Counted from the first letter of the stretch, positions 48,571-63,266 are shown. The stretch: 64,000 nt of DNA from an uncultured bacterium (GCA_903841185.1 CAIMIV010000059.1:32442-96441); one strand, 5' to 3'. A program made the numbers and translations. The notes: generated from the letters alone by a model not told the origin.

Positions 48571-48956
48571 TGTTTTCTCCTTTGTCTAATTTTTAAAAAA
48601 CTAAGAGTCTGTTTATGATCTCTCTTTCGTCGCGAGAGATTTAAATTTCGAGCGAAAATTGTGAAAAATGAGGAGGAATATCTGGATATTTCGACGAGTT
48701 TTGTCCGCCAGCTGGCGGAGCAGCCGGAATTTCAATTTCGCAGCAGAATACGGAGATTATGAACAGGCTCTAGACCAACAAAAAACCGATCAGGAGATCG
48801 GCTCGTTTCTCATCACTATTTAGCTTAGTAGCTAAAAACCAGCCGACATCCATAATCGATTAAAGAAGAAGAAACTATTTTGGCTAGTGATTTTATTCAT
48901 ACCCACATCTTAGCAAGAATATATTTATTGTCAAGTTCAAAATCCTTCGAGAGAAT

Positions 48957-49028
48957 ATGCTGGAAAATTGGGATAGGATTGAGATTAGATTGGAGCGTGC
49001 GATGGCTTTGATACAATATATTTGCTAG
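48957..49028 (+). repeat. C-element copy 1, which is also a 24-codon ORF MLENWDRIEIRLERAMALIQYIC.
   Basis: Core aaaattgggataggattgag-att-agattggagcgtgcgatggc.. shared with 49682-49741, 61015-61075 and 62108-62170. Confidence 0.55.
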
Positions 49029-49147
49029 ATTCCATAAACATTGACACTAATTAATTCACCTGCTATAAATAAAATCAATACGTCACAAAAAACCCCGGCT
49101 CTTTTCTAATCAACTGTCACAATCAACATTCAGCGAGGAGGCATCAC

Positions 49148-49552
49148 ATGATTTCAACAGCTCATATCACAATTGGTCCAAATCTGGCATTATTTACCGG
49201 TAACAGCGTTAACTCGGGAAAATTCGAAGATCGACATCCAGCGTTTTATGAGGCTATTTCTCTACCAAGTCAATTGCAGGTATTTGGTGTATTTCCTGAA
49301 TATACGGCGAAGAGATGGCCAGAAAAATCATCTTTAATTCCGTCATTTTTAAGCACTCCGCTTAAAAACGGGAAAACAATGCATGATCTGCTGGCGATAC
49401 ACGACAACACAATGGACTCGATTATCGATCTTGGCACCTCCGATATAGAGGTGACTATCCGAATACACGACAAAACAAGCACCTTGCTTTGTTCAATCCG
49501 GATTGCTATCAGTCTTTACGATGCAAGTATTAAGACAATCCAGGAAATTTAA
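49148..49552 (+). CDS. Hypothetical protein.
   Basis: 134 aa. Strong SD GAGGAGG 7 nt upstream. Flanked by C-element copies 1 and 2 and followed by a terminator. Confidence 0.5.
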   Translation: MISTAHITIGPNLALFTGNSVNSGKFEDRHPAFYEAISLPSQLQVFGVFPEYTAKRWPEKSSLIPSFLSTPLKNGKTMHDLLAIHDNTMDSIIDLGTSDIEVTIRIHDKTSTLLCSIRIAISLYDASIKTIQEI

Positions 49553-49583
49553 CTGCATTGATCAAATCAATGCCACATAAAAT

Positions 49584-49615
49584 CCCGGGGAGTATACACT
49601 CTTCGGGATTTTTTA
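49584..49615 (+). terminator. Rho-independent terminator.
   Basis: cccggggagt-atac-actcttcggg (10 bp including two G-U pairs) followed by TTTTTT. Confidence 0.6.
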
Positions 49616-49639
49616 TATACAACCTCACTATCCGCCTCC

Positions 49640-49741
49640 GGATGGGATGCGACTAGGCCTGCCCGCCGACGAAGTGGGAATAATTGGGACAGCATTGAGA
49701 TGAGATTGGAGCGTGCAAACGCATCATTGAGACAAGCTTAG
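49640..49741 (+). repeat. C-element copy 2.
   Basis: ..tccgcctccggatgggat..actagg...aattgggacagcattgagatgagattggagcgtgcaaacgca...tag. The conserved frame reads ..NNWDSIEMRLERANASLRQA*. Confidence 0.55.
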
Positions 49742-49857
49742 AGATTTAGCGCTTATCCCTTGAATAATAAGTATTGGAAGAAGGATGAATCCAATAACAA
49801 TTCCGAAGGATACGTACCCCACAATACTGCTCGCTATAAACATACTACGTTAATATT

Positions 49858-52800
49858 TCAAAAACGTTCTTTCTCATCGATAAATGTCATATACAGCGTT
49901 GGGATTATAAAGAGTGTGAAGAATGATGAAATAGAAAGTCCAAAAATTACGGCTGACCCAAGTGCCGTCCATGTGGCATTGGAAAGTGTGATTGGGATGA
50001 TGCCCGCTATGGTCACAATTGAAGTGATAAAGATTGCCTCCAGTCTGGATTTCCCGGCATCAATAATCGCATCATGGAAAGGAATCCCCGTTTTTATATT
50101 GAGATTGATTTTATCAATCAAAATGATGGCATTTTTAACTACAATTCCGAAGAGTGCCAGAATTCCAATGAGACCGGGAAAGCTCAAGGAAACTCCCAAA
50201 AGTGCCATACCGATAAACACGCCGATGAGAGCCAATGGGAGTGTTACTAGCACTATGATGGCTTTTCTGAATGAATTGAACTGAATAACGAGAGTTGAAA
50301 CGATCAAGACCACCGCAATCGCCATCGCGCGAATAATTGAAAGCACGGACTCGGTATTCTGCTGGCTTTCACCTCCATAACTTATGACATATCCTTCTGG
50401 CAACGAATAATCTTTGGCCAGCTTATCTTGGAATGCTTTAACTATTTGCGTGGAATTTGTGCTACTGCTAGCGTCAGCCGTAAGCAAGACTGTTCTTTTT
50501 TGGTCAATGCGCGAAATAGAATCAATGGATGGCGTGAGATTAACAACCGCTACATCTTTAATGAATACGGGTAGCTTTTTGGCGTTTAGGATTTGCAAAT
50601 TCTGAATTGTTTCCAAAGTAGGAATTTTATCCTTACCAAATCTTGCCAACACATCGATATCCTTATTATCGCGAATTACTGTCGTCACTGTCGTGCCTGA
50701 AATGGCATTGCGCAGAGCTGACCCAACTACCGTGGCATTCAAATCATACAGCTCCATCTTGGCTGGATCAAGTGCAAAGGTATATTCCGCCGGAGCATCT
50801 TTGATGGATATATCTGAATTGATGGTGCCAGGAATGGAATCCAGCATAGGTTTAAGATCGTTGGCAATTTTATCTAAGGTTTGCAAATTCTCTCCACTTA
50901 TTTGAGCTTGAAAAGCACTGCCTGATGGCGGTCCGCCACTTGGACTAGAAACTGTAATTTTTGTATCTTGAATATCAGAAAGATTGGCACGAATTTTTTG
51001 GGCAATATCGTACGCTTTAATGTTGCGGTTTTCCTGCGGAGTGAGCTTGATTGTAATTGAAGAAGTGTTTGATGTGTTTGTTCCTCCTCCACTCATACTG
51101 CTGCCATTTGATCCGGGACTGCCTACTATTGTAGAAAAATTAACAATATCAGGAGTGGATAATAATCTTTTTTCCACTTCTTGGGTTATCCGATCGGTTT
51201 GTTCGAGATTGAGTCCGGCCGGTCCGCGCATACTGATGTATAGGACATCACCATCTGATACTGGAAAAAATTCTGATTTCACTATGCCGGTAATCGGCAA
51301 TGCTATTGCAAATAGAAACAGCGCCAGCGTTAAGAGCAACGTCGTGATTCTGCGCTTGCGCGAGCCGGTTGCCATTCTTAGATATTTTTCATAAGTAGGC
51401 AGGACACGATCAAAATGAATAACGCCATGAATTAATCTACCAGCCAAAGTGGCATTTTCGCGGTCACCTTGAGAAAGCAATTTTTGTTTTATGAGATCGT
51501 CACTGCCCCATTCTTTTTCCATTAGTATGAAGTTAGCTTCCAGAGTTTCTTTTCCACCCTTAAAATACCAGGAGATCATCCAAACAATAATTCCAAATGA
51601 AAGTGTCGCAAACCCGTAGCCAAGAACCGAATGTTGCATAGCAAGTGCCAGACCTGATCCTAATATTGATATCAAGATGAGCCAAAAGAATTTTTTTGTC
51701 AGCCTTATTCTTTCCAGAACTGCCGCTAACGGATGATTGATCATGAGCGCAATCAAAAGCGAGGCTATCAATGTCACCGAAACGGTGATTGGGATTGATT
51801 TGATAAATTGTCCAATCATGCCAGAAGCCATAAGCAGTGGCAGGAATGCCCACACTGTTGCCAGCGTGGTGGAAACAAGCACCACTTTGAAATCATGCAG
51901 CACTAAAAGCACCGCTTCTTCGGGTGTGTATTTGCCAGTCTTCATATATTGCTTAGTGGCGCTAACAACCACAATGGCATCATCCACCAAAAGTCCCAAA
52001 GAAAGCAAAAGGGCAAAAATGGACAAGAAATTAAGGGATGTTCCGGTTGCTTGCATCACTCCGAAAGTCACAAAGAAAACCAGGGGAATGGCGATGCCGG
52101 CCACAAATGCTTCCTTCAAGCCCACTATGAGAAATAAAATTCCCACCACTAAAATCAAGGTTAACAAAAAGTCATGCGTAAGTTGATCAAAATCCTTTCT
52201 GATTCTATCTGCTTGATTGACCGTGTCATCAAGACTGATTCCGGAAGGAAAAGTTTTCAGCATTGCCTGAATAGTAACGTGGGCGCTGTCAACGGTATTG
52301 ATGATTGAGCCACCGGTTCTTTTGACAACTTGCAGAGTAATCGCATTTTGTGGAGCTTTTCCGCTTTGAGAAAAGCGCGAATATACTGTTTTTTCAATGG
52401 CCTTTTCTTGGACATTGGCAATGTCTTTGAGAAATACGATGGCGCCTTGTGCAGTGTGCAGAATCGGAATATCTCCCAGACTCTTGGCATCATAAAATCG
52501 GCCGTCAGAGCGAACCGGATAATTAAACTCCGCACCTTCAAAATTGCCCGCAGGAATGGCGCGATTCGTGGCTGCAATCACCTGATTGGATTGCTCAGCG
52601 GTAATATTATAGAGAGCTAGTTTTTGTGGGTCGTATGCCACTTCGAATTCACTTTGATCTCCGCCAGAAATATTCACTTCGCGAATCCCAGGATTTTTCT
52701 CCAATTCGCTTTGAATTTTTTCGGCATAAGTTCGCAGAGTGAACCCATCGTATGGACCAATAAGCGCAAAGGTCACAATTGGAGTGTCGTCCAATGAAAT

Positions 52801-53271
52801 TTCTTTAACCTGCGGATCTGTTGCATCAGCCGGAAGGTCTTTTTTTATAGTGGGAAGCTTGTCGCGCAATTTTCGCACCGAATCATCAACATTCTGATTG
52901 GCATCAAATTCAACTACTACCGTTGCGAATGAATTGGAAGAAGTGGAAGTGATTTTTTTGATCCCACTTATGCCTGAAATATCCGTTTCAATTTTTTTCG
53001 TCACCAGCTCTTCCATATCCGAAGGAGCTGCGCCGGGATAGCCCGCGCTGATAATGGCTGTAGCTATTTTTACTTCCGGATTTGATTCTCGTGGCAGTTG
53101 CGTAAAAGAATATATTCCCCAGCCAGATATCAAAATAATCAGCAAAATAACCACTCGAAAATTTGTGACAAAAAAATTAAGCCAAGTTTTTCTCTTGTCA
53201 GGTGTGAATTCCAGCTTATCCAGATAAGCACTGTCTGTTGATTGAGAATTATTGTTTTCGAAATTTTTCAT
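49858..53271 (-). CDS. RND-family efflux transporter (AcrB/HAE-like, 12 TM with two large loops).
   Basis: 1137 aa. The internally duplicated 6-TM plus large-loop architecture typical of RND pumps. Confidence 0.85.
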   Translation of the reverse strand: MKNFENNNSQSTDSAYLDKLEFTPDKRKTWLNFFVTNFRVVILLIILISGWGIYSFTQLPRESNPEVKIATAIISAGYPGAAPSDMEELVTKKIETDISGISGIKKITSTSSNSFATVVVEFDANQNVDDSVRKLRDKLPTIKKDLPADATDPQVKEISLDDTPIVTFALIGPYDGFTLRTYAEKIQSELEKNPGIREVNISGGDQSEFEVAYDPQKLALYNITAEQSNQVIAATNRAIPAGNFEGAEFNYPVRSDGRFYDAKSLGDIPILHTAQGAIVFLKDIANVQEKAIEKTVYSRFSQSGKAPQNAITLQVVKRTGGSIINTVDSAHVTIQAMLKTFPSGISLDDTVNQADRIRKDFDQLTHDFLLTLILVVGILFLIVGLKEAFVAGIAIPLVFFVTFGVMQATGTSLNFLSIFALLLSLGLLVDDAIVVVSATKQYMKTGKYTPEEAVLLVLHDFKVVLVSTTLATVWAFLPLLMASGMIGQFIKSIPITVSVTLIASLLIALMINHPLAAVLERIRLTKKFFWLILISILGSGLALAMQHSVLGYGFATLSFGIIVWMISWYFKGGKETLEANFILMEKEWGSDDLIKQKLLSQGDRENATLAGRLIHGVIHFDRVLPTYEKYLRMATGSRKRRITTLLLTLALFLFAIALPITGIVKSEFFPVSDGDVLYISMRGPAGLNLEQTDRITQEVEKRLLSTPDIVNFSTIVGSPGSNGSSMSGGGTNTSNTSSITIKLTPQENRNIKAYDIAQKIRANLSDIQDTKITVSSPSGGPPSGSAFQAQISGENLQTLDKIANDLKPMLDSIPGTINSDISIKDAPAEYTFALDPAKMELYDLNATVVGSALRNAISGTTVTTVIRDNKDIDVLARFGKDKIPTLETIQNLQILNAKKLPVFIKDVAVVNLTPSIDSISRIDQKRTVLLTADASSSTNSTQIVKAFQDKLAKDYSLPEGYVISYGGESQQNTESVLSIIRAMAIAVVLIVSTLVIQFNSFRKAIIVLVTLPLALIGVFIGMALLGVSLSFPGLIGILALFGIVVKNAIILIDKINLNIKTGIPFHDAIIDAGKSRLEAIFITSIVTIAGIIPITLSNATWTALGSAVIFGLSISSFFTLFIIPTLYMTFIDEKERF

Positions 53272-53329
53272 AAAGATCTTTGATTTATACGCGATTGAGT
53301 TATTGAAAAGAAAATATAAACAATGTTAA

Positions 53330-54433
53330 TTAATTTTGCAAGGCGATAGCCGCTCCATCACGCACAAGTTTGCTGCCGTCAGTGATGATTAAAGTTTCTG
53401 GTGAAATCTGGGAAGATATTTCTGCAGTTTCCCCATTCACACTAACAATAGTTACTGGGATTTTTTTTGCAACATTGTTGTCAGCTGCAAAAATATAACT
53501 TTCATTTTGACCAACACTGATTGCAGACAATGGTAAAATCAAGTCCATGCCAATTTTCGGCTTAATACTCGTTTCAATCGAAACGGTCGTGATTGTTCCT
53601 CCAAGCAATGCCAGGTTTTGTTTTTTTGGATAAGCTTCGATTAAAAAACGTTTCGTTGTCGGTTCTGCCGAGATGGCAATGTTTTGAATCGTCAAAGGTG
53701 ATGAATTTCCGTCGCCGTCAATTGCAAAAATTTCTTGTCCGCGAGTCAAAGCAGCTCGCTGATCTTGATCGACATAAAATTGAATCTTAACGTTAGTTGT
53801 TTTGCTGACAGTTGCAATCAATTGTCCCATAGCAACCGAATCGCCAACGGAAACTGCCTTGTTGGTTATGATTCCTGAAATTGGACTGGTTATCGAATGA
53901 TTATCAATTGACCCATTGAGTCCCAGTGTGGCATTTTCATATTGCAATTTTGCGATGTCTCTTTGAGTTTTTGCGCTATCTTTTTGTGCGCTTGTTGCAC
54001 TGCTATCTTTTTTCAAATTATTATAATTATCCTTTGCCAGATTATAGGATTTTTTTGCCTGCTCAACTGAAATTTGCGCTTGTTGAACCTGCAAACTTCG
54101 TAGTCCATTATCTCCAATGTCCAATGTGCCGGTATCATCTATTTTAGCCAGCAATGATCCCGCTCCAATCGCGCTGCCTATGTTACGTGGAGCCACCATA
54201 ATAGTGCCTGCGGACTTTGCGGTAATTTTGACTTCTTGATCGCCAACCACGCTGGCGGGAAATTGATTTTTTTCTACAAGGGTTTTGCTGTCCGCAGCAA
54301 GCTTTGCAGACACTTTGATTGGCTGACTCGGCACATCTTGGACTGCCACTGGTTTTTTATTAGGAAAGCGCACCGCCACGATAAAAAGCACAACAACGAC
54401 AACTACAGCTGCGATAATTTTTTTCTTATTCAT
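53330..54433 (-). CDS. Efflux RND periplasmic adaptor (membrane fusion protein).
   Basis: 367 aa. N-terminal TM anchor, coiled coil, a lipoyl-like motif ITSPISGIIT, and a beta-barrel region. Confidence 0.75.
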   Translation of the reverse strand: MNKKKIIAAVVVVVVLFIVAVRFPNKKPVAVQDVPSQPIKVSAKLAADSKTLVEKNQFPASVVGDQEVKITAKSAGTIMVAPRNIGSAIGAGSLLAKIDDTGTLDIGDNGLRSLQVQQAQISVEQAKKSYNLAKDNYNNLKKDSSATSAQKDSAKTQRDIAKLQYENATLGLNGSIDNHSITSPISGIITNKAVSVGDSVAMGQLIATVSKTTNVKIQFYVDQDQRAALTRGQEIFAIDGDGNSSPLTIQNIAISAEPTTKRFLIEAYPKKQNLALLGGTITTVSIETSIKPKIGMDLILPLSAISVGQNESYIFAADNNVAKKIPVTIVSVNGETAEISSQISPETLIITDGSKLVRDGAAIALQN

Positions 54434-54442
54434 AGAATTTCT

Positions 54443-54913
54443 TTAAATTTTAAATATCTTTTCCAATTCACTTTCTTCACTATCGAGAATAGCACTCAGC
54501 TTCTTGAAAAAGGCTTTATGCTGAGCAAGCTCTTTTTCAGTGAACTTTTTTTCAAAGGAAATTTTCGCTTTCTTGAATCTCTTTTCCAAATCAGCAATTT
54601 TTTCTTTACCAGCTGGCGTAAGCCTAATGGATATCTTGCGCTTATCCTTACTGTCACTCGCATAAGTCTTAGTCAGATATCCTTCTTTCTCCAAAAAGCT
54701 CAAGCGTTGGCTCATATTCGATTTTGTAGCCCCCGTCATTTCAATCAACGCACTGGCTGTCATGGAACTATTTTCTTGCAGCAGCTTGAGAATTTTTACG
54801 CTAATAGCGGAAAGGTTCATCGGCTGAAAAACATATTTATTGACGATTGATTCAAATCTATGCGCCAAACAAACAATCGGCTCAACCGGTGAGGACGAAT
54901 CATTTATCTTCAT
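54443..54913 (-). CDS. MarR-family transcriptional regulator. The start is trimmed to MKINDSS.
   Basis: Winged HTH ..LIEMTGATKSNMSQRLSFLEKEGYLTK.. It is co-directional with and directly upstream of the adaptor-pump pair. Confidence 0.75.
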   Translation of the reverse strand: MKINDSSSPVEPIVCLAHRFESIVNKYVFQPMNLSAISVKILKLLQENSSMTASALIEMTGATKSNMSQRLSFLEKEGYLTKTYASDSKDKRKISIRLTPAGKEKIADLEKRFKKAKISFEKKFTEKELAQHKAFFKKLSAILDSEESELEKIFKI

Positions 54914-55017
54914 AGGAGAAACTATTAAAAGGTTAATGTATGAATAGTTTATCAATGAACTATTCTTTTGTCAAGCCACAAAAATAAAACAGCCTCCCAC
55001 AAAGATTATGCTTATCG

Positions 55018-55221
55018 CTATTTATTTTGAAGTATCGAAAACAATTCCGGGTCAGCCAGTCCATCAAGCTTGAAAAGACTGATGCCATTGAAATGATATT
55101 TTTTGGCAAGCTCAATTTTTTGCCTGACCGCTTCCGCATCGGAAAAAGTAATAATGTTTTCTCCTTTAGAAGATTTGTAGTTAAAAGAAAGTTCTCCTCC
55201 ATTGTCTCGCTCCTGCGACAA
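55018..55221 (-). pseudogene. Possible remnant of a GH18-like glycosyl hydrolase C-terminus.
   Basis: The 67-aa ORF ends ..KYHFNGISLFKLDGLADPEL, which resembles the GH18 C-terminal ..DGIsiWeLgqD. segment. No upstream domain is present. A second overlapping 102-aa ORF in another frame looks spurious. Confidence 0.2.
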
Positions 55222-55294
55222 CGATTATAAACACAACGACGAGTGAACATTTTTTTAACATATATCATAGCGCAAGATATCGCGCAAAGATTAT

Positions 55295-56182
55295 TTATTT
55301 TTTGCCGTGTTCAATACCAATTTTCCAAACACCTTTTTCCCTAAAGGCCGGAATGTTTTGCCTGCGTGCGGCATTAAGAATAGCGGGCGCTGACTTAGTT
55401 TGTTGCTTCACATATTCAGACAATTTTATAATTGTTTCACCTTTCAAATATGCGATTCTTTTGTGCAGTGATTCCATCAGCGCAAGGACGAGAACCTTTT
55501 CCATAAGTTTAGTGCTTTGGCTATGCCGATAGTCAGGAAAGGCTTGATAATATTTTTGTTTTTCTTTGTCGCGAATTATAATCATCGGGAAGCCGGCTCG
55601 CAACAATTGATAGTTCATCAGCACACGCCCAATCCGACCATTGCCATCACAAAATGGATGAATAGTTTCGAAATCCAAATGAAACTTAGTAATCTTGTCT
55701 CCGAAATATTTCTCTACATCACCTTTGTATTCATCAAGGGTTGTATTAATCATCGACTCAACTTTTTCTGGCGCTGGAGCAATATGTGTTCCGACTCTGA
55801 CATATTCACCAGGCTTTCTGAACCGCCCAGCAAATTCATCATTGATTCCGCCAATAAGCATCTGGTGCAAAAGCAAAATTAATTCTTTATCGATTTCTTT
55901 TTCTTTGGATTTATCTCGGATATAGTTTATCACTCTGAACAAATTTTTCGCTTCAAAAACTTCTCGCACACTCACGTCACGCGAAACCTCCATTTCCAAA
56001 AGAATCTTTTCTGTTTCCTTGAGCGTCAGCGTGGAGTTCTCAATTGCATTGGAGTTATAGACACTTTCCGGAATTTCCGCCTCATCAATCAAAACCAACA
56101 ACGACTCTTTGCTCTTGCGCAATTTATCATATTCATTTTTTAAGGCCTGGATGCGCTTTTTAATAGGCTTTGTTATCGGCAT
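55295..56182 (-). CDS. Fic/Fido-domain protein (class II, auto-inhibited AMPylator type).
   Basis: 295 aa. Fic motif HPFCDGNGRIGR. N-terminal inhibitory helix motif SNAIEN, matching (S/T)xxxE(G/N). Confidence 0.85.
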   Translation of the reverse strand: MPITKPIKKRIQALKNEYDKLRKSKESLLVLIDEAEIPESVYNSNAIENSTLTLKETEKILLEMEVSRDVSVREVFEAKNLFRVINYIRDKSKEKEIDKELILLLHQMLIGGINDEFAGRFRKPGEYVRVGTHIAPAPEKVESMINTTLDEYKGDVEKYFGDKITKFHLDFETIHPFCDGNGRIGRVLMNYQLLRAGFPMIIIRDKEKQKYYQAFPDYRHSQSTKLMEKVLVLALMESLHKRIAYLKGETIIKLSEYVKQQTKSAPAILNAARRQNIPAFREKGVWKIGIEHGKK

Positions 56183-56403
56183 AAAATATTTTTTAGTGAA
56201 TTTATACTATAATTGTATATTATTCACGCTTCTTTGTCAATATTTAGTGAATTTATAGCTATTCATGCCAATATTAACACCTTTTTAGCAGTATAACCGT
56301 GAAAATATAGCTTTTTTCCTACCTTTTCACGGTTTTGGTTTAATTAAATCAGGACTGGACAGACCAACATCAACGCTGTGACGCCGAAACAGAGAATCAA
56401 TTA

Positions 56404-56441
56404 TAAAAAAACAGCTCGAAACTATATAAGCTTCGAGCTGT
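56404..56441 (-). terminator. Rho-independent terminator after the HAD gene.
   Basis: Minus strand: acagctcgaa-gcttatatagt-ttcgagctgt followed by TTTTTTT. Confidence 0.6.
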
Positions 56442-56460
56442 CATGGTATAAATGTGCATT

Positions 56461-57084
56461 TCAAAGAGAAAGAAGATCTTCAGGAGAGTGAAAAACAAAA
56501 TCCGGCTCGAGTTCGGCCAGATGAATTCCGATTCGCCTGATTCCCCAATCGACTGCACCAGTTTGAATTCCAGCATTCTTTCCGGCTATGATGTCAGGTT
56601 CCGCGTCACCGATGATCAGCGTTTCTTGACGACTCGCTTGATGCAATCCCATTAGATAATGGATTCCTTCCGGATGCGGTTTTATCTTTCGCACATCATC
56701 TGATCCGACAAATGTCGCAACATAGGGTACACAGCAAGCCAGGGACAATCTGACGCTCTTTGATGTACTGGAAGACAATACTGTCAACGTATGCCGGGTT
56801 GCCAATTCACGAAAAACACTTTCCACCCATGGAAAAGTTTGAATCAGCGGATCGTGTATCTCATGGAAAATACGAGTTACCTCAGGATAATGTTTTTTGT
56901 TTAATCCGATGTTGCGCATGTTAGCATGCCAATCATAATCAAACCATTGATGGAAACTTTTCATATCAGTGAAAAGCTTGTTTGGATTACGGCCAGCAAA
57001 TCTGCATATAGCCTGATAGGATAAGAAAATTCCTTGCCAAGAAAATGAACGCAACACACCATCGCAATCAAAAATTATCAACAT
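56461..57084 (-). CDS. HAD-IA family hydrolase. The start is trimmed to MLIIFDCDGVL, with a strong GGGAGGAGGG SD.
   Basis: Motif I DCDGVL, motif II SSSTS, and motif IV IGDAEPDIIAGKNAG. Confidence 0.75.
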   Translation of the reverse strand: MLIIFDCDGVLRSFSWQGIFLSYQAICRFAGRNPNKLFTDMKSFHQWFDYDWHANMRNIGLNKKHYPEVTRIFHEIHDPLIQTFPWVESVFRELATRHTLTVLSSSTSKSVRLSLACCVPYVATFVGSDDVRKIKPHPEGIHYLMGLHQASRQETLIIGDAEPDIIAGKNAGIQTGAVDWGIRRIGIHLAELEPDFVFHSPEDLLSL

Positions 57085-57356
57085 GACTTGTTTCCCTCCT
57101 CCCGGGTGTTTTTTAAATTTTGGTTTAGCTATATTAAGAACAATTATAAACGCATGGTCACTACAATCTATCAATAAGCCAGATTAGCATCTTTCCTAGC
57201 GCATGTCAAAACCAGTCCTGAGTCTTATTTTTATTTTTTACACAGGGTCGTGCCTGCCTGCTCGCCGTCCTAAAGCTCTGCGAAGCGGGTCGGTAGGCGG
57301 GTTAGAACTATTTTTATGAAAAATAATAAATATATTCCCATTTCCAATCTAAAATA

Positions 57357-59732
57357 TCAGCCTTGCACTACACCCCCTTTATTCATTTTGACATTCATGC
57401 TGCTTTCCAAGCTATTATTAAAATTCCTATCATGACTAATAGAGATAAACGTAACTTCGGGATTTTTTTTCTTTTCCATATTTATAATCTCCGCGATTTT
57501 AATAGCTGTCTCTTCATCAACTGACGCCGTCGGTTCATCTAGAAAAACTATCCTTGATTGATTCTTTCTCATTTTCAAAATTGCCCTAGCTAATCCTATT
57601 CGAGATGTTTCACCGCCAGAAGTTGTTCCTGCATCTCCTCTGCCACCCTTCAATTTCTCATTAAGATTTTTAAATCTCTCATCAAGGCCAACCTCACCCA
57701 AGATATCCTTAATCTCCCTATCATCAACTTCGCCTGAAATTCCAAAAATTAAGTTTTTCCTGATACTGTCTTCTAGAATATATGGGAATTGAGATAGATA
57801 CGCAATCTTACTATAAAGAGAATCCTCTCCACTCTTTTTAACTTTTCCCATATCAACTCCGCCTATCTCCACTGAACCAGAGGTTGGCTTATAATAGCCA
57901 GCTAAAACCTTTATCAATGTAGTCTTCCCTGCCCCAGAAAGTCCCTGAAGAGAAACTAATGATCCGCCTGGAATTTCTAAATTAATATCATTTAATATCT
58001 TTTTATTGTCGAATTCTATACCCACACCATTAAGCATAATATCATTTCCCTCTATTTCACCCATGCCTATTCTTTCTTTTTCATTCTCTTTTTCCTCCTG
58101 GGCATATCCATTAAACATTAAATCCATCTGCATCATATCCCTATATGCGCTAAGAAGTTTTTGTTTTGCTCTTAGAAAAGTGCTTATGCCATCCCTAAAA
58201 TTTCCGGAGTAGATTATAGCGGCTATGAATTTATCAGAAGATCCTCCAGAAAGATAGGTTATCATACCTGCTATCACAAAATTTAGAGATCCGAAAGAAT
58301 GATTTATTTTTTCCCTAATCACACCAAAAAATGTCCTGTCTGACATGGCGATCCTTTCCTTGGACAACATATCATCCATTTCTTGAGAAAATTTTTCCTT
58401 TTCACCAGAAAGAACAATTTCCATATGAGCACTGAGAAGTTCTTCCATTTTCTGCAACATTTTTTCCGCTTCCTTTTCCGCCCCTCTCTCTTTTCCCCAA
58501 AATCCACCTTTTTTACGGACATAGCTATCAATCACCATCATCAACCCCGCTCCAGCCGCCGTTCCCCCTGCTAACATCGGACTCTTGTCATAAAGCATTG
58601 CGGCGCTAGTCATCAATGTGACCAAGGCTGGCGCTATATCGAAACTAATCATCCTTAGAACCTCTTCATAACTATGCTTAGCATTGGCTATTCTTCTTTT
58701 TATAGTTTCCATTCCAAATTTTCCCACCTCCTCTCCTGGAAATTCAGAAGTGCTTTCGGAAATATAATCTGAAAATCCTCCTTCCTTTTGGAAATTTACG
58801 TCTAGAAAATCTTTGAAATATTTGTTTATCAGAACTGAGCCTCCAGCTGAGGCTACGGAAAGGAGGGCGTAAAGCCCCACCTGGGTCAATTGCTCCTCAT
58901 CCATCTTTCCATCTTTAAAAGCATTCGCTAAAAACATTGGCGCGTAGCCATCAATAAAAGCGGGCACCATCAAGGCGGCAGATAAACCGACGTATTTAGC
59001 TTTGTCACCCTTCATGAACCTAGAAAAAATATCTATCGTTTTCTGTATTATTTTTATATCATGAATTTCTATACTGTCTAATTTTTCTAGATTACAGGTA
59101 CTAATCAGTTCTTTTATTTCCTTTTTTTCAAATCCAGCTTGCTCATATTTCTCATGCACCTTCTCAATCAAAACTTCATTTTTTTCATTCTTAGAATAAA
59201 AATTCAACCGCCTTGATTCATTTTCTTGCAACATAGAATCTTGGGTCTCTCTGACATTTTTTCTAAATTTTGCAGCATTGCCGGCCAATTTATATGATTC
59301 AAAATAGCTCTCTAACGATTCGAGCAATTCTAATTCTGACGTCTCCAGCCCTCTCGAAGTTCCATCTCTAAAATTTACCTGCAACACTGCCTCTTCATTT
59401 TTTGAAATACCGTCAACACCATCAATGTCGCCACCATAATGAGCAATCTTCAACATCAATAATCTTATGCTTTCATTTGTAGAATCATCAATAGCATCAA
59501 TATATTCCTCCGTATCGATTTTGTTCTTTATTTCCCTTCTCACTCGAAGCATTTCTTCCACAAGCTCTTTTGGCAATTCTTCTGTCCCAAAAATCTCTTT
59601 CACAGACTCTCTGATTTCAACCAAGCGCTCCTTCTTAGCCTCCATCAAATCAATCTGATCTGTTTTTAATTCTTGTTTGGGAGTACTTTCTAAATTCTTA
59701 TCAATTGTATAGATAGGAAATTTCTCACCCAT
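57357..59732 (-). CDS. ABC-exporter-like protein: a long N-terminal cytoplasmic extension, a TM region, and a C-terminal ABC ATPase.
   Basis: 791 aa. Walker A GLSGAGKTTL, signature TSGGETSRIGLARA, and Walker B RIVFLDEPTASVDEE. At least four hydrophobic helices lie upstream of the NBD. About 230 aa of coiled, charged N-terminus. Confidence 0.7.
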   Translation of the reverse strand: MGEKFPIYTIDKNLESTPKQELKTDQIDLMEAKKERLVEIRESVKEIFGTEELPKELVEEMLRVRREIKNKIDTEEYIDAIDDSTNESIRLLMLKIAHYGGDIDGVDGISKNEEAVLQVNFRDGTSRGLETSELELLESLESYFESYKLAGNAAKFRKNVRETQDSMLQENESRRLNFYSKNEKNEVLIEKVHEKYEQAGFEKKEIKELISTCNLEKLDSIEIHDIKIIQKTIDIFSRFMKGDKAKYVGLSAALMVPAFIDGYAPMFLANAFKDGKMDEEQLTQVGLYALLSVASAGGSVLINKYFKDFLDVNFQKEGGFSDYISESTSEFPGEEVGKFGMETIKRRIANAKHSYEEVLRMISFDIAPALVTLMTSAAMLYDKSPMLAGGTAAGAGLMMVIDSYVRKKGGFWGKERGAEKEAEKMLQKMEELLSAHMEIVLSGEKEKFSQEMDDMLSKERIAMSDRTFFGVIREKINHSFGSLNFVIAGMITYLSGGSSDKFIAAIIYSGNFRDGISTFLRAKQKLLSAYRDMMQMDLMFNGYAQEEKENEKERIGMGEIEGNDIMLNGVGIEFDNKKILNDINLEIPGGSLVSLQGLSGAGKTTLIKVLAGYYKPTSGSVEIGGVDMGKVKKSGEDSLYSKIAYLSQFPYILEDSIRKNLIFGISGEVDDREIKDILGEVGLDERFKNLNEKLKGGRGDAGTTSGGETSRIGLARAILKMRKNQSRIVFLDEPTASVDEETAIKIAEIINMEKKKNPEVTFISISHDRNFNNSLESSMNVKMNKGGVVQG

Positions 59733-59820
59733 AAGTATTTATTTCACTAGTTAACAAGTACATTATAACACTAATAATTCTAATTTTATATTTTACATAA
59801 AAAAATGTAAGAGTTGAAAC

Positions 59821-59851
59821 AAAAAAGAGGCTCTAAATAGCCTCTTTTTTG
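59821..59851. terminator. Bidirectional hairpin terminator. It is homologous to the one next to tRNA-Trp at 63219-63250.
   Basis: A6, gaggct-ctaaat-agcctc, T7. Confidence 0.6.
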
Positions 59852-59870
59852 TTAATTTTCAGAGTACGGG

Positions 59871-60008
59871 ATGCAGGAATTTCGTCCTCACTCCGATTCG
59901 CGGTACGGGGTGGCGATAGATCCTCTCCGCCAGCTGGCGGATCGAATCTGCGCCCGCCTTGGCGGGATAGTCTCACTGCCACCCGTTCGATTCCTGCTGC
60001 ATCCACAT
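59871..60008. other. GC-rich structured tRNA-like element of about 140 nt, unclassified.
   Basis: Perfect 8-bp terminal pairing GGATGCAG/CTGCATCC. A canonical T-loop-like GTTCGATTCC without a matching T-stem. The internal palindrome CCGCCAGCTGGCGG and a CAAG-type capped hairpin. On the minus strand its 3' end continues into an approximately 20-nt copy of the tRNA-Trp 3' end plus trailer. Confidence 0.3.
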
Positions 60009-60133
60009 AAAAAAACGGCGAGTCCAACATGTGAACCAACCGTTTTTAGTACTTTACGCTATGCAACTATCCATAGTCGCGGTTTATTTTTGAATACAAG
60101 AATATCATCTAACAATAACATAATCTCTTGCGC

Positions 60134-60805
60134 TTATGCAGTTATCCTCGCCAGACAAACATCAATTCCCCTTAAGAGAATCCCCTGAACCTGCTCATTA
60201 TCGACAAACACATTCGGCCGACCAATTGGCGGAATCTCACCATCCATGATGATGCAACCGCTCCAAGCGTCAAGCAGAATCTCAAAAACCACCTTGCCAT
60301 CGAAGATGAATGAGAACTTGACTCCTGGGAGTTCCTTCATCGTCACATCGAGTGTGGCATTAATCGCTATTCCCCATTCTTCGGCCGCTTTGATGATATC
60401 TTTAGTCAAACACCCCCGCATTAATTTTTCAGACACCTCAAGCTGTATTTTTTGACGACGTGTCATGAGCGCGTTAAGATGATTTTTGTTCACAAGATTG
60501 ATTGACTCCAGCCCGACAGATGAAAGCATGTCCAGAGAAAATTCATCCCTGAGCGCGATGCCCAAAGGAAACCGCGCTTCAATATGACGATTTTGATCTG
60601 TTTCCCATTGACCCGAAACAATCACAGCATCGACGATTTCAGGGTGCAGGAAAACGATACTAATCTTGTTGCCATCAATCAGCCCCTTAAGATATGCCAG
60701 AGATGCAATTCCGTTCACGCCCTTTTCCCACGTCATAATGACCGTCGGCCCTATTTGTGGGTATCTTTTCCCCATTTCAGAAAGAATATGCTTGCTTTTC
60801 ATCAA
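60134..60805 (-). CDS. Hypothetical protein.
   Basis: 223 aa, no motif recognised. Confidence 0.45.
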   Translation of the reverse strand: MMKSKHILSEMGKRYPQIGPTVIMTWEKGVNGIASLAYLKGLIDGNKISIVFLHPEIVDAVIVSGQWETDQNRHIEARFPLGIALRDEFSLDMLSSVGLESINLVNKNHLNALMTRRQKIQLEVSEKLMRGCLTKDIIKAAEEWGIAINATLDVTMKELPGVKFSFIFDGKVVFEILLDAWSGCIIMDGEIPPIGRPNVFVDNEQVQGILLRGIDVCLARITA

Positions 60806-60988
60806 TCCCCCCCCTCAGTTATTGGTTGTTTTGGCAACATGCCATTTGTTATATATTCTTACAACATTAAAATTATTCAAGAACAATAGATAATATTAAC
60901 AACAAATATCAATTTTGTCAACCATTCACATCCTTCAAACACAAAAAACACTTGCTTAAAGCATTTTTTACATATTTTGCGCGGGGTT

Positions 60989-61075
60989 ATGGACAGGACT
61001 AGGAGTAATATTTTGAAAAATTGGGATCGGATTGAGGTAAGATTAGAGCGCGCAATGGTTTTGATGAGCAAATAA
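60989..61075 (+). repeat. C-element copy 3, which is also a 28-codon ORF MDRTRSNILKNWDRIEVRLERAMVLMSK.
   Basis: Shares ..acatattttgcgcgg.. and aaaattgggatcggattgaggtaagattagagcgcgcaatgg with copy 4. Confidence 0.55.
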
Positions 61076-61087
61076 TGTGTCGTTTTT

Positions 61088-61540
61088 TTATAATTCTTCC
61101 TTTATTTTAGAACTTTTAGGATGATGGCATACCAACTTAGAGGAATAATATCCACCCACAAATGCAAGCGTATGGATAGTCCCAAAAGCAAAGCCGGTGC
61201 CGAAGAGCCCCATTCCTAAAAAAGTTAGACCTCGCAGAGAAATTCCAAAGGGATAATAATCAAGCAATAATGGGAACACATTATAATACATTCCCCAAAG
61301 CGATGCGACGACAACTCCCCCAACCGCCACTTTGATAAATTCATTTTTCTCTAGATTAAAACCAGACAAAAATATAATCGAAAATATAAAATAGACAATC
61401 GCTTTTGCAAAGAAATATGGCACTGTCTCCATTGGATTTGAAAATAAAAAGTGAGAAAAATAATCAATGCCAAAAACGCCAACAATGGATATAATCAGAG
61501 AGCTAATCGCTATTTTTATATATTTTTTTTCCATAATCAT
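61088..61540 (-). CDS. Hypothetical polytopic membrane protein.
   Basis: 150 aa, 4-5 TM, Gly-rich helices. Confidence 0.45.
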   Translation of the reverse strand: MIMEKKYIKIAISSLIISIVGVFGIDYFSHFLFSNPMETVPYFFAKAIVYFIFSIIFLSGFNLEKNEFIKVAVGGVVVASLWGMYYNVFPLLLDYYPFGISLRGLTFLGMGLFGTGFAFGTIHTLAFVGGYYSSKLVCHHPKSSKIKEEL

Positions 61541-61543
61541 AAT

Positions 61544-61903
61544 CTATTCAACGATTATTTTCCCAAGCATTGAAGGATGAATGGCACAAGAATAATCAAA
61601 AGTTCCAGCATCACTAAAGGTGAAAGAAAAACTTTGACCTTTGCTTAGTTGGCCTGAATTGAAAGTGGCAGACTTGATTTGATGTTGAGCTGGATCATTA
61701 TTAGTCCAAGTTACGGTCGTGCCTTTTTTGACAGTCAACGTTCCAGGATTAAAAGTAAAATTTTGGATATTAACCATATTAGATCCTTGAGTTGGTACTG
61801 CTATAGGAGTGGACGTATTATTGGAGGTTCCTCCATATAAGCTACACCCACCAAGAATAAACGCACCAAACAATATTAGAGACAACGCGATGTTTTTTTT
61901 CAT
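61544..61903 (-). CDS. Cupredoxin (amicyanin/plastocyanin-like blue copper protein) lipoprotein. The start is trimmed to MKKNIALS.
   Basis: Lipobox ILGGC. Type-1 copper ligands H (..PAQHQIK..) and C-x2-H-x2-M in ..DYSCAIHPSMLGKIIV. Confidence 0.7.
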   Translation of the reverse strand: MKKNIALSLILFGAFILGGCSLYGGTSNNTSTPIAVPTQGSNMVNIQNFTFNPGTLTVKKGTTVTWTNNDPAQHQIKSATFNSGQLSKGQSFSFTFSDAGTFDYSCAIHPSMLGKIIVE

Positions 61904-62014
61904 ATTTTTAAGTTTAATAATTAATCTAAAAAGTATCACATATTAATTATACACCTAAAGACCTCAATATACATCAACTAATCCAACCTATCCGGAGATC
62001 ACTCATCTTCACAC

Positions 62015-62043
62015 AAAAAAATGCTTAATTAAAGCATTTTTTA
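62015..62043. terminator. Perfectly palindromic bidirectional terminator.
   Basis: A7, atgctt-aatta-aagcat, T6. Confidence 0.5.
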
Positions 62044-62170
62044 CATATTTTGCACGGAGCCATGCCTGTCCGCCTCTGGAGGAGATATAACTAGGAACAC
62101 TATTTTGGAAAATTGGGATAGGATTGAGGTGAGATTGGAGCGTGCGATGGCGCTAATGAAAGCTTTGTAG
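62041..62170 (+). repeat. C-element copy 4.
   Basis: ..acatattttgcacgg..tccgcctctggaggagat..actagg..ttggaaaattgggataggattgaggtgagattggagcgtgcgatggcgctaatgaaagctttgtag. The conserved frame (TTG)ENWDRIEVRLERAMALMKAL* has no ATG. Confidence 0.55.
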
Positions 62171-63119: not shown

Positions 63120-63218
63120 ATATTCTTAATATGGTTTAGCTCTTTATTGACAGTATACCATATTAAGGAAAATAGTCAATATCGCTCAAATAAAGCTCCA
63201 ACTTTCTACTGCCCATAT

Positions 63219-63250
63219 CAAAAAAGAGGCTATTTAAAGCCTCCTTTCTT
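63219..63250 (-). terminator. Terminator for tRNA-Trp.
   Basis: Minus strand: gaggct-ttaaat-agcctc followed by TTTTTT. Confidence 0.55.
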
Positions 63251-63266
63251 GGTTAATTTTCAGAGC

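What the first reader, a model, noticed from the sequence alone, without database searches (positions are those of the whole stretch)
48957..62170. Four-copy repeat family with coding-type conservation (..NWDRIEVRLERAMAL..) flanking small cassettes
Four elements share a 50-60 nt core, aaaattgggatRgSattgag-NtN-agattRgagcgYgcRatgg. They sit at 48957-49028, 49640-49741, 60989-61075 and 62041-62170.

Copies 3 and 4 share a further 5' block: a palindromic terminator, then acatattttgcRcgg. Copies 2 and 4 share tccgcctcYgga.g.gat...actagg.

In one fixed frame the substitutions between copies are mostly synonymous (gat/gac, agg/cgg, att/gtg/gta, ttg/tta, cgt/cgc, gcg/gca, gct/gcg/gca), and every copy ends at a stop codon. 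That is the signature of purifying selection on a peptide, read as WD(R/S)IE(V/I/M)RLERA(M/N)A... However, the frames lack a normal gene body: ATG-initiated ORFs are only 24 and 28 codons in copies 1 and 3, and copies 2 and 4 have no ATG at all.

The copies pairwise bracket cassettes. Copies 1 and 2 bracket a 134-aa gene with its own SD and terminator. Copies 3 and 4 bracket a membrane-protein plus cupredoxin pair. Copies 2, 3 and 4 each lie 10-120 bp 3' of a minus-strand operon end.

The elements could be a family of very small proteins or leader peptides. They could be 3' remnants of a gene repeatedly used as an insertion target. Or they could be cassette-boundary recombination sites of an unknown mobile system.
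Basis: seen in the sequence. Interest (0 to 1): 0.7.

Follow-up and report, generated by a model that had tools for sequence, protein, structure and literature searches.

The report
Cassette junction repeats beside tRNA-Trp
The four repeats are boundary modules between small accessory-gene cassettes stacked downstream of a tRNA-Trp gene in a candidate-phyla-radiation bacterium; each has a terminator hairpin, a diverged copy of the tRNA's 3' half and a conserved 31-33-codon reading frame, a combination I could not find described.

Summary
Four same-strand copies exist, with none expected by chance.

The family is much larger. I found 59 copies in 28 non-redundant contigs of Parcubacteria/Moranbacteria-type genomes. 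Within any contig all copies share one strand, with up to 7 copies in 8 kb.

Each copy has the same layout:
- an A-run/hairpin/T-run;
- a box, (A/T)TGCACGG;
- a 31-33-codon frame (M/L)HGAMDTTRNNILENWDRIEVRLERAxALMxQx. It ends a median 16 nt from the stop of a convergent cargo gene.

The + frame shows purifying selection (pN/pS 0.27, no stops in 48 copies). There is no RNA structure, no known protein family and no longer protein carrying the peptide.

Ten independent contigs, including the window, have tRNA-Trp 0.5-2.5 kb beyond the last copy. The first 39 nt of the element are collinear with the 3' half of tRNA-Trp. GCACGGG matches the tRNA 3' end and TTTTGGA matches the anticodon loop. TTTTGGA lies in a block that is invariant even at synonymous sites.

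The same cargo genes (Fic and others) recur in different arrays with different neighbours.

Best reading: these are att-type junctions of integrase-less cassettes accreted at tRNA-Trp, spanned by a conserved microprotein frame. No recombinase was found. The exchange mechanism and the peptide's role are inferred.

The parts
48937..49028 (+). Copy 1: a 5'-truncated junction module. It has no hairpin and no TGCACGG box. The ORF is 48957-49028 (MLENWDRIEIRLERAMALIQYIC). A minus-strand promoter, TTGACA-16-TAAGAT at 48934-48907, abuts its left end.
49580..49741 (+). Copy 2: the most degenerate copy. Hairpin at 49580-49615, which is also the terminator of the 134-aa gene. No tRNA-end box. Two GC-rich blocks at 49631-49646 and 49658-49675. 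Core NWDSIEMRLERANASLRQA, stop at 49739-49741. No start codon in frame.
60943..61075 (+). Copy 3: canonical module. Weak A-run/hairpin/T-run at 60943-60969. Box TTGCGCGG at 60977-60984. 32-codon ORF at 60977-61075 (M/L RGVMDRTRSNILKNWDRIEVRLERAMVLMSK). The anticodon-loop-like heptamer carries one change (TTTTGAA, 61011-61017).
62014..62170 (+). Copy 4: strong A-run/hairpin/T-run at 62014-62045. Box TTGCACGG at 62050-62057. A 20-nt GC-rich block at 62064-62083 puts the box out of frame. TTTTGGA at 62103-62109 lies inside the invariant block. Coding core runs to the stop at 62168-62170 (..LSASGGDITRNTILENWDRIEVRLERAMALMKAL).
63265..63336 (-). tRNA-Trp (CCA), the anchor of the array. Read on the + strand, its 3' end is GCACGGGTGG. 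Its anticodon loop reads TTTTGGA.
63218..63264 (.). A-run/hairpin/T-run plus spacer just downstream of tRNA-Trp. This is the same layout as the left arm of each junction module.
62175..63179 (-). Cassette A: a Fic-domain gene (314 aa, 62175-63119) with its own minus-strand promoter (TTGACT at 63179-63174, TATACT at 63157-63152). The same gene, at 79-83% nucleotide identity, lies inside arrays of L003, L011 and L014.
61088..61939 (-). Cassette B: a 150-aa membrane protein plus a cupredoxin lipoprotein, lying between copies 3 and 4.
49858..60921 (-). Cassette block C, about 11 kb and probably composite. It holds an RND pump, a HlyD-type adaptor, an ArsR/MarR regulator, a 102-aa gene, Fic (295 aa), a HAD hydrolase, an ABC ATPase and a 223-aa gene. 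The promoter TTGACA-17-TAATAT is at 60921-60893. The Fic-295 segment recurs next to elements in L007, L011, L013, L021 and L032/33.
49148..49552 (+). Cassette D: a 134-aa gene of unknown function between copies 1 and 2. It is the rare case of cargo on the same strand as the element.

Best explanation
The repeats are junction modules of a stack of small accessory-gene cassettes that accumulated one after another on the 3' side of tRNA-Trp in a Parcubacteria/Moranbacteria-type (CPR) genome.

Read on the + strand, each module consists of:
(i) a bidirectional terminator-like hairpin;
(ii) a diverged copy of the tRNA-Trp 3' half. It starts with the tRNA's last seven bases (GCACGGG) and ends with its anticodon-loop heptamer (TTTTGGA);
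(iii) about 55 bp more, ending within a few bases of the stop codon of the convergent cargo gene.

From the tRNA-end box to that point the module is one open 31-33-codon frame. It encodes a single amphipathic helix and is kept under purifying selection.

On the cargo strand a cassette therefore reads: promoter (often a consensus TTGACA), cargo gene(s), stop, junction module, terminator.

Shown here: the anatomy; the coding-type selection; the arrays; the constant link to, and orientation relative to, tRNA-Trp; the tRNA-derived head; the sharing of cargo between arrays of different genomes; and the fact that copies in one array are not each other's closest relatives.

Inferred: the modules descend from, and probably still act as, attachment (att) sites of a tRNA-targeting tyrosine-type recombinase supplied in trans. 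The block AATATTTTGGAAAATTGGGA, invariant even at synonymous sites, would be the crossover and core-binding region: a 7-bp overlap equal to the anticodon loop, flanked by inverted CAAT/ATTG. Recombination there would join the N-terminal half of the frame from one cassette to the C-terminal half from the next, regenerating an intact hybrid ORF at every junction.

The role of the peptide is unknown. My guess is an accessory or directionality factor, or a regulator of the cassette.
For: Copies and arrays: four window copies with 0 expected. 59 copies in 28 non-redundant sequences, always one strand per contig, median spacing 1186 nt.

Relation to cargo: the right neighbour is on the opposite strand in 49 of 55 cases, with a median stop-to-stop gap of 16 nt.

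Hairpin: an A-run/T-run hairpin ends 3-12 nt before the box in most copies, with different stem sequences.

Coding: + frame pN/pS is 0.27 for the core and 0.51 for the N-part, with 0 stops. Leu and Arg six-fold codon switches occur. The mirror antisense frame has stops, and has a start codon in only 13 of 48 copies. A frame-blind DNA profile finds the same set of copies.

tRNA link: tRNA-Trp lies on the opposite strand 0.5-2.5 kb beyond the last copy in the window and in L002/8, L004, L007, L012, L016, L019, L027, L028 and L032/33. The tRNA 3' end reads GCACGGG, preceded by the same hairpin-and-spacer layout. The two collinear 7-mers, GCACGGG and TTTTGGA, occur together in only 87 of 300,000 shuffles.

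Invariant block: GGAAAATTGGGA has entropy about 0 at synonymous positions, whereas other third positions have 1-1.9 bits.

Cargo sharing: the same cargo occurs in different arrays at 75-92% identity, with homology ending at or inside the element. Pairs homologous on the left flank share the hairpin and N-part but not the C-part; pairs homologous on the right flank show the reverse tendency.

Independent histories: window copies are 85-91% identical to copies in other contigs but only 74-82% to each other.

Promoters: TGTCAA, which is the minus-strand -35 box, is enriched five-fold left of the hairpin.
Against: No recombinase. None was found in the window ORFs tested, among the 25 commonest Pfam families of 142 flanking or cargo ORFs, or in ten further ORFs of integrase-like size.

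tRNA similarity is limited. Between the two 7-mers the match to the tRNA is not significant (9 of 23 positions, p about 0.09). The tRNA-like head could not supply a functional tRNA 3' half, so present-day insertion would have to use an existing module, not the tRNA itself.

Breakpoints are not at one fixed position. Several shared-cargo pairs break at the stop codon or at the TGTCAA box rather than in the invariant block. The linkage test rests on only 4 and 6 pairs.

No polymorphism seen. All contigs of the window's own population carry the identical array.

Four contigs with 6-10 kb of right flank show no tRNA-Trp within reach: L003, L005, L021 and L034.

Copies 2 and 4 lack an intact canonical ORF.

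Expression of the peptide is untested and no + strand promoter was identified.
Confidence: 0.5

Rival explanations
1. The array is a 'flexible genomic island' maintained only by homologous recombination. The module is a conserved small gene with a terminator. It supplies short tracts of homology, so that incoming DNA (for example taken up by competence) replaces or adds cargo between two copies. No dedicated recombinase and no att function are involved.
For: No recombinase was found in about 360 kb of arrays and flanks. Homology breakpoints of shared cargo are spread over the TGTCAA box, the hairpin, the inside of the ORF and the stop codon. Copies are mosaic between N- and C-terminal variants.
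Against: It does not explain the tRNA-Trp-derived head, the constant orientation relative to the tRNA, or a 12-20-nt block invariant at synonymous sites. The identical tracts are short (about 20 nt) for RecA-type exchange. In several pairs the cargo is 83% identical while the adjoining element half is only 61-64% identical, so the break lies at the edge of the homology rather than inside it.
Confidence: 0.25
2. The copies are simply paralogues of a small-protein gene whose product works with the neighbouring gene, for example as an antitoxin, inhibitor or regulator of the convergent cargo (notably Fic). Their position at cassette borders is incidental.
For: Purifying selection acts on the + frame. 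The predicted structure is a confident single helix (pLDDT 90). Fic genes are the commonest convergent neighbour.
Against: The convergent neighbours are unrelated to one another: RND pump, membrane protein, NUDIX, radical SAM, APH kinase, metallo-beta-lactamase fold and others. The window's Fic-314 carries an N-terminal SNAIEGN sequence. From my own knowledge of Fic classes this fits the internal inhibitory-helix motif (S/T)xxxE(G/N), so it should not need a separate antitoxin; I did not test this. The peptide matches no antitoxin or other family. This reading leaves the tRNA-derived head and the synonymous-site invariance unexplained.
Confidence: 0.12
3. The functional product is on the other strand. 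The module is a conserved 3'-UTR or terminator element (or an sRNA derived from a 3' UTR) of the cargo mRNAs, and the apparent ORF is a by-product.
For: The module lies between the cargo stop codon and a terminator hairpin that works in that direction. The mirror antisense frame also looks fairly conserved (pN/pS 0.35).
Against: No consensus RNA structure was found (-0.09 kcal/mol, 0 covarying pairs). Single copies do not fold better than shuffles. There is no Rfam match. Variation has strict 3-nt periodicity with six-fold codon switches. In one subfamily a second terminator sits between the cargo gene and the module, so the cargo transcript would end before reaching it.
Confidence: 0.06
4. 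The copies are leftover 3' ends of a longer protein-coding gene, for instance an integrase or another gene that spanned the attachment site. The gene would have been split or displaced at each insertion.
For: Conservation is strongest toward a fixed stop codon. Copies 2 and 4 have no proper start. From memory, the motif ENWDRIEVR resembles the C-terminal EWDKIEIK of lambda integrase.
Against: The exhaustive profile search returns only 29-104-aa ORFs. The two longest are upstream over-extensions of the same MHG... frame. The PDB search does not recover any integrase. In 26 of 26 canonically spaced copies the frame starts at the box with ATG, TTG or CTG, directly after a hairpin. No + strand gene precedes any copy.
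Confidence: 0.04

Closest known systems
tRNA-targeted genomic islands with tandem accretion, e.g. tycheposons of Prochlorococcus (bioRxiv 10.1101/2020.12.28.424599). The classification of att sites within tRNA genes is from my own knowledge of Williams 2002.
   Same: The island sits on the 3' side of a tRNA gene. Successive insertions push older ones outward. Units are separated by same-orientation repeats derived from the tRNA's 3' part. Cargo is accessory: toxins, metal resistance and the like. The anticodon-loop heptamer as a candidate crossover matches the common 'anticodon-loop' class of sites.
   Different: No integrase or replication module was found in any unit. Units are very small (median spacing about 1.2 kb) and are single expression cassettes with their own promoter and terminator. 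The repeat is not a plain partial tRNA: only the two ends of the tRNA half are kept, and the repeat extends about 55 bp further. The whole repeat is an ORF under purifying selection.
Integron cassette arrays, including integrase-less attC clusters (CALINs)
   Same: These are arrays of short, mostly single-gene cassettes in one orientation. A recombination-site-like repeat lies immediately 3' of each cargo ORF. The same cassettes occur in different arrays. Arrays can be seen without a nearby integrase.
   Different: No attC-type imperfect palindrome or conserved fold is present. Conservation here is of sequence with codon periodicity, not of structure. Cassettes carry their own promoters. The array is anchored at a tRNA gene rather than at intI/attI. 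No IntI was seen.
Attachment sites that lie inside a gene, so that recombination splits or regenerates an ORF (e.g. SSV-type archaeal integrases; from my own knowledge)
   Same: A reading frame runs across a tRNA-derived attachment sequence. Both recombination products keep coding sequence.
   Different: Here the frame is only 31-33 codons and begins at the tRNA-end box. It is complete at every junction. It is not part of an integrase.
Bacterial small-protein (sORF) families
   Same: A 29-45-aa product. The family is recognisable only by comparative codon-level conservation. The predicted structure is a single helix.
   Different: It is multi-copy within one locus and tied to cassette borders. 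Its 5' third is derived from a tRNA gene. It carries a DNA-level invariant block on top of the coding constraint.

Membership tests
tRNA-targeted integrative element / genomic island | Located at the 3' side of a tRNA gene, in a fixed orientation relative to it | tested here: met
   tRNA-Trp lies on the opposite strand 0.5-2.5 kb beyond the last copy in the window and in 9 other independent contigs. Four contigs with long right flanks show none within reach.
tRNA-targeted integrative element / genomic island | Units flanked by direct repeats that copy the 3' part of the tRNA | tested here: inconclusive
   GCACGGG (the tRNA 3' end) and TTTTGGA (the anticodon loop) are collinear with the tRNA. 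Both together occur in 87 of 300,000 shuffles. The 25 nt between them are not significantly tRNA-like.
tRNA-targeted integrative element / genomic island | Encodes its own integrase (tyrosine or serine recombinase) | tested here: not met
   No recombinase family appears among the 25 commonest Pfam families of 142 flanking or cargo ORFs, in 10 further ORFs of integrase-like size, or in 26 window ORFs. One serine recombinase lies 9 kb away in L005 only. Singleton families among the 142 ORFs were not all listed.
tRNA-targeted integrative element / genomic island | Excision and integration demonstrated: circles, empty sites or presence/absence polymorphism | not testable with these tools
   Contigs of the same population are identical over the array. 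No empty site was retrieved.
Integron / attC cassette array | attC site: an imperfect palindrome (R''-L''...L'-R') that folds as a hairpin; conserved in structure rather than in sequence | tested here: not met
   Single copies do not fold better than shuffles (z from -1.3 to +1.9). The consensus fold is -0.09 kcal/mol with 0 covarying pairs. Conservation is at the sequence and codon level.
Integron / attC cassette array | intI integrase with attI and promoter Pc at the head of the array; promoterless cassettes | tested here: not met
   The head of the array is tRNA-Trp, with no integrase. Consensus minus-strand promoters precede the cargo; 13 of 56 copies have a full -35/-10 beside the hairpin.
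Small protein-coding gene | Open frame with codon-level purifying selection across homologues | tested here: met
   pN/pS is 0.27 for the core and 0.51 for the N-part, with 0 stops in 48 copies. All other frames are worse or interrupted. The result holds for the 15 copies that were not selected by the database pattern.
Small protein-coding gene | Start codon, translation signals and evidence of expression | tested here: inconclusive
   Start codons are ATG in 16, TTG in 9 and CTG in 1 of 26 canonical copies, but the TG is fixed by the box. There is no SD motif, yet SD motifs are rare genome-wide (5 of 56 long ORFs). No + strand promoter was identified. Expression cannot be tested here.
Structured non-coding RNA (Rfam families) | Match to a curated covariance model, or conserved secondary structure with covariation | tested here: not met
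   The only Rfam gathering-threshold hit in the window is the tRNA. No covariation was found.
Diversity-generating retroelement repeats (TR/VR) | Repeat pairs that differ at adenines of the template; a reverse transcriptase nearby; VR at the 3' end of a target gene | tested here: not met
   Differences lie at codon third positions and involve all four bases. The copies are not the 3' ends of genes. No RT was seen in the region annotated.

The most novel reading that the evidence does not exclude
CPR bacteria of the Parcubacteria/Moranbacteria group may possess a previously undescribed gene-capture platform that works like an integron but is built differently. It would consist of self-expressed, integrase-less cassettes captured at a site derived from tRNA-Trp. 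Its recombination site would double as the gene for a junction-spanning 31-33-aa helical microprotein. Every recombination event would rebuild that gene, and its product might itself take part in or control cassette movement.
Probability: 0.3. Interest if true: 0.85.

Novelty: new variant of a known kind. Interest (0 to 1): 0.66.

Why it matters
CPR/Patescibacteria have tiny genomes, and little is known about how they acquire accessory genes. This locus looks like a dedicated landing pad where toxin (Fic), metal-resistance, efflux and other genes are swapped between lineages as compact units that each carry a promoter, a gene and a terminator.

If the junction module is a working recombination site, it defines a new site and an as-yet-unidentified recombinase. 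It would also be a rare case of a DNA site and a microprotein gene superimposed on each other.

In practice, the module is a sequence tag for finding flexible islands and recent gene transfer in CPR metagenomes. The peptide family adds a conserved microprotein that gene callers mostly miss. Only 14 members of the peptide family turned up in the two protein searches, of 5.8 billion clustered sequences and 1.84 billion representatives, whereas 59 copies were found at the DNA level here.

Tried and rejected
RNA and viral searches
- Rfam scan of the window: only the tRNA.
- RNA folding of each copy and RNAalifold on 23 copies: no structure.
- Viral contig scan with the peptide profile: no confirmed hit.

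Protein comparisons
- Pfam and NCBIfam with the peptides: nothing.
- PDB profile search: only a non-significant match (E 0.79) to the C-terminal ILENWDK of a VapC toxin. I judged this a chance match.
- Lambda integrase's C-terminal tail EWDKIEIK resembles ENWDRIEVR. This was recalled from memory and not recovered by any search, so I dropped it.

Alternative roles
- Fic antitoxin idea: the cargo is too diverse.
- Leader-peptide idea: the neighbours are convergent.
- Antisense coding frame: interrupted, and it lacks starts.
- DGR and integron attC: defining features not met.

tRNA similarity
- Extended similarity beyond the two 7-mers is not significant. The divergent L034 copy shows GGAAGG..AGTTGA, p about 0.18.

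Other checks
- GC-rich block of copies 2 and 4 as an independent mobile mini-insert: rejected. The pattern occurs only inside elements.
- The 215-aa HTH protein next to the tRNA as a candidate recombinase: no family or PDB match beyond weak HTH hits.
- Literature searches for a CPR integron, cassette array or tRNA island: nothing relevant.
- Ascertainment bias from protein-based copy finding: a DNA profile returns the same copies.
Full report
**1.
The degenerate core matches exactly four times in the window, all on the + strand, at 48966, 49682, 61019 and 62111. No shuffle gave a match, and no further significant copy exists in the 64 kb. So are the short ORFs and the in-frame stops. The bracketed genes are a 134-aa protein with no family match and a membrane protein plus cupredoxin pair. 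The wider region also holds an RND/HlyD efflux pair, an ArsR/MarR regulator, two Fic genes, a HAD hydrolase and an ABC ATPase. Prephenate dehydratase lies on the left, and tRNA-Trp (63265-63336, minus strand) on the right.

**2. The family is large and specific to CPR genomes.**
A codon-degenerate DNA pattern found four MAG contigs, labelled Parcubacteria, Candidatus Moraniibacteriota (two) and an unclassified 'Bacterium BMS3Abin15'. A peptide profile found 12 small predicted proteins of 29-104 aa among 5.8 billion. A metagenome scan gave 26 more loci. A six-frame profile search of all fetched DNA finds 59 distinct copies in 28 non-redundant sequences. A frame-blind nhmmer DNA profile returns the same set plus one more intact copy, all on one strand per contig. 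Arrays reach 7 copies in 8 kb (L008), with a median spacing of 1186 nt. The viral contig scan found nothing.

**3. The repeat is coding, not a structured RNA.**
- On 48 ungapped copies, entropy by codon position is 0.64 / 0.41 / 1.05.
The mirror antisense frame, whose third positions coincide with it, gives 0.35 with 7 stops. The other four frames give 0.9-2.8.
- The 15 copies that do not contain the database search pattern give 0.34 with 0 stops.
- The mirror frame has a start codon ahead of the conserved block in only 13 of 48 copies.
- Leu (TTR/CTN) and Arg (AGR/CGN) codons switch between families while the amino acid is kept.
- The coding signal continues upstream to a conserved box. In 26 copies with canonical spacing the frame is (A/T/C)TG CAC GGN..., 15 codons before the Trp codon, with pN/pS 0.51 and 0 stops.
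- The consensus product is (M/L)HGAMDTTRNNILENWDRIEVRLERAxALMxQx, 31-33 aa. AlphaFold predicts one helix over residues 2-32, with pLDDT 90.
- RNAalifold finds no consensus structure (-0.09 kcal/mol, no covarying pair). Single copies fold no better than shuffles. Rfam has no match.
- No Pfam, NCBIfam or PDB family matches.
- An exhaustive HMMER search of 1.84 billion representative proteins returns only 11 hits, all 29-104 aa. The '3' end of a longer gene' reading is therefore not supported.
- Shine-Dalgarno motifs are rare in this genome (5 of 56 long ORFs), so their absence here is not informative.

**4. Anatomy of the module.**
Read on the + strand, each module has:
- an A-run, a GC-containing stem-loop whose stem sequence differs between copies, and a T-run, ending 3-12 nt before the box;
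- the box (A/T)TGCACGG;
- a variable N-terminal coding part in three main forms: GAMDTTRNN, GLGYALREN, and a form with a GC-rich 20-nt block that occurs only inside elements;
- a block AATATTTTGGAAAATTGGGA that is essentially invariant, even at the synonymous positions of the Glu and Asn codons, while other third positions carry 1-1.9 bits;
- the C-terminal coding part, in two main forms (EVRLERAMALMK and DVRLQRASALLKQI);
- the stop codon, after which similarity ends abruptly.

In one subfamily a second, variable terminator follows the stop.

The window copies differ in completeness:
- Copy 3 is canonical.
- Copy 4 carries the GC-rich block, which shifts the box out of frame.
- Copy 2 is the most degenerate and has no box.
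- Copy 1 is truncated on its 5' side by a minus-strand promoter.

**5. Context.**
The right neighbour is on the opposite strand in 49 of 55 cases. Its stop codon lies a median 16 nt from the element's stop, and the two sometimes overlap. The left neighbour is on the opposite strand in 48 of 52 cases. Just left of the hairpin, TGTCAA (a TTGACA -35 box on the cargo strand) is five-fold enriched, and 13 of 56 copies have a full -35/-10 pair there. On the cargo strand each unit therefore reads promoter, gene(s), stop, module, terminator.

Cargo is diverse: Fic proteins most often, then efflux, cupredoxin, NUDIX, radical SAM, kinase, methyltransferases and RM components.

**6. The anchor is tRNA-Trp, and the head of the module derives from it.**
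In the window and in nine other independent contigs, a tRNA-Trp (CCA) gene lies on the opposite strand 0.5-2.5 kb beyond the last copy. Contigs of the window's own population show rpmG just beyond it, and rplJ/rplL lie left of the array. The array therefore sits in the usual rpmG-tRNA-Trp-...-rplJL neighbourhood.

Read on the element strand, the tRNA's 3' end is GCACGGG(T/C)GG. It is preceded by an A-run hairpin, a T-run and an 8-20-nt spacer, which is the same layout as the module's left arm. The module consensus shares two exact 7-mers with the tRNA, in near-collinear register: GCACGGG at offset 0 in both, and TTTTGGA (the anticodon loop UCCAAAA) at offset 32 versus 34. Only 87 of 300,000 shuffles give two such matches. 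The bases in between are not significantly tRNA-like.

TTTTGGA lies inside the invariant block and is flanked by inverted CAAT/ATTG. From general knowledge of tRNA-targeting tyrosine recombinases, this is the layout of a core site whose 7-bp overlap is the anticodon loop.

**7. Cassettes are shared between arrays.**
- Fic-314 occurs next to the tRNA in the window but inside arrays in L003, L011 and L014, at 79-83% nucleotide identity.
- Fic-295 recurs in L007, L011, L013, L021 and L032/33.
- A NUDIX-like gene that is a bracketed cassette in L008 and L013 lies outside the array in the window.
- Copy 4 is 91.6% identical to the L030 copy although both flanks are unrelated.
- Each window copy is closer to copies elsewhere (85-91%) than to its siblings in the window (74-82%), so there is no concerted evolution.
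- Homology of shared cargo ends at or within the module, but not at one fixed point. It ends at the stop codon, at the box, inside the ORF, or at the TGTCAA box.
- In the few informative pairs, homology on the left flank goes with the hairpin and N-part, and homology on the right flank goes with the C-part (n = 4 and 6).

**8. What is missing.**
No recombinase was found in the window ORFs tested, or among the commonest families of 142 flanking or cargo ORFs. No empty site, circle or presence/absence polymorphism was available: contigs of the same population are identical over the array. I found no description of such arrays in the searchable literature.

**9. Interpretation.**
I think the repeats are att-type junction modules of integrase-less cassettes that accreted in tandem at tRNA-Trp, with a conserved microprotein frame spanning each junction.

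Shown: the anatomy, the selection, the arrays, the tRNA link, cargo sharing and the independent histories of the copies.

Inferred: site-specific exchange by a trans-acting recombinase at the invariant block, and any function of the peptide.

The main rival is exchange purely by homologous recombination between these conserved modules. It fits the missing recombinase and the scattered breakpoints. It does not explain the tRNA-derived head, the fixed orientation or the synonymous-site invariance. The two may both apply: origin by site-specific integration, then later shuffling by homologous recombination.

**10. Comparison with known systems.**
The locus works like tRNA-anchored islands built by tandem integration (such as tycheposons) and like integron cassette arrays. 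It fails the membership tests for both: no element-borne integrase, and no attC structure, intI or attI. Its repeat is a coding sequence. I therefore rate it a new variant of a known kind, with a moderate chance of being a distinct CPR gene-capture platform.

Noticed in passing
window 48660-48830: Possible fifth, very degenerate copy left of copy 1. ORF 48668-48823 reads ..VLSASWRSSRNF.. (compare LSASG.D.TR in copies 2 and 4). It contains the GC palindrome CCGCCAGCTGGCGG (48704-48717), which also interrupts element copies in L011 and L032. A hairpin follows at 48783-48804. The alignment is weak and the profile searches did not detect it.
   Followed up: partly
window 49631-49675 and 62064-62083; L011 6260, L019 2062, L030 1370: A GC-rich block of about 20 nt (CCTGYCCGCCnnnGGnGG) in an otherwise AT-rich genome occurs only inside element copies, at two alternative positions. 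In copy 4 and in L030 it shifts the start box out of frame. Ser codons switch between TCY and AGC across versions.
   Followed up: partly
window 55295-56182 and 62175-63119; many loci: Two Fic-domain genes lie in the window's array. Fic genes (295, 314/329, 342, 350 and 376 aa) are the commonest cargo directly convergent with the element in other contigs. They may act as addiction-type stabilisers of the island.
   Followed up: partly
window 63344-63991 (minus strand): A 215-aa protein lies between rpmG and tRNA-Trp. It has a weak N-terminal HTH (HTH_23/HTH_38) and no other family or PDB match. It is conserved next to the tRNA in L007. Its function is unknown, and it was not shown to be a recombinase.
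   Followed up: partly
L038 1-1174 versus window 48604: A 2.2-kb contig from another sample is 99.5% identical to window 48604-49641. To the left it continues into an ftsA-like gene instead of the prephenate dehydratase gene. This is either a rearranged strain or an assembly chimera.
   Followed up: partly
whole window: Shine-Dalgarno-like motifs precede only 5 of 56 long ORFs (using a crude choice of start codon). Translation initiation in this organism seems largely SD-independent.
   Followed up: no
window about 41.6-42.7 kb, and beyond the right end (L039/L040): rplL and rplJ lie about 6 kb left of the array. rpmG, a GIY-YIG gene, tsf and rpsB lie just right of the window end. The array, and perhaps the pheA-to-VTT genes too, therefore interrupts the usual rpmG-tRNA-Trp-secE-nusG-rplKAJL neighbourhood. 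secE and nusG were not located.
   Followed up: no
L034 9990-10123: A divergent Moranbacteria copy (MREGQLIGGNMFPRLVTGILENWDRIEVKVERMETLMKGC) keeps more tRNA-like sequence (GGGAAGGAcaGTTGA and TTTTGGAGA). It sits beside a type III restriction-modification cargo. No tRNA-Trp lies within 10 kb.
   Followed up: partly
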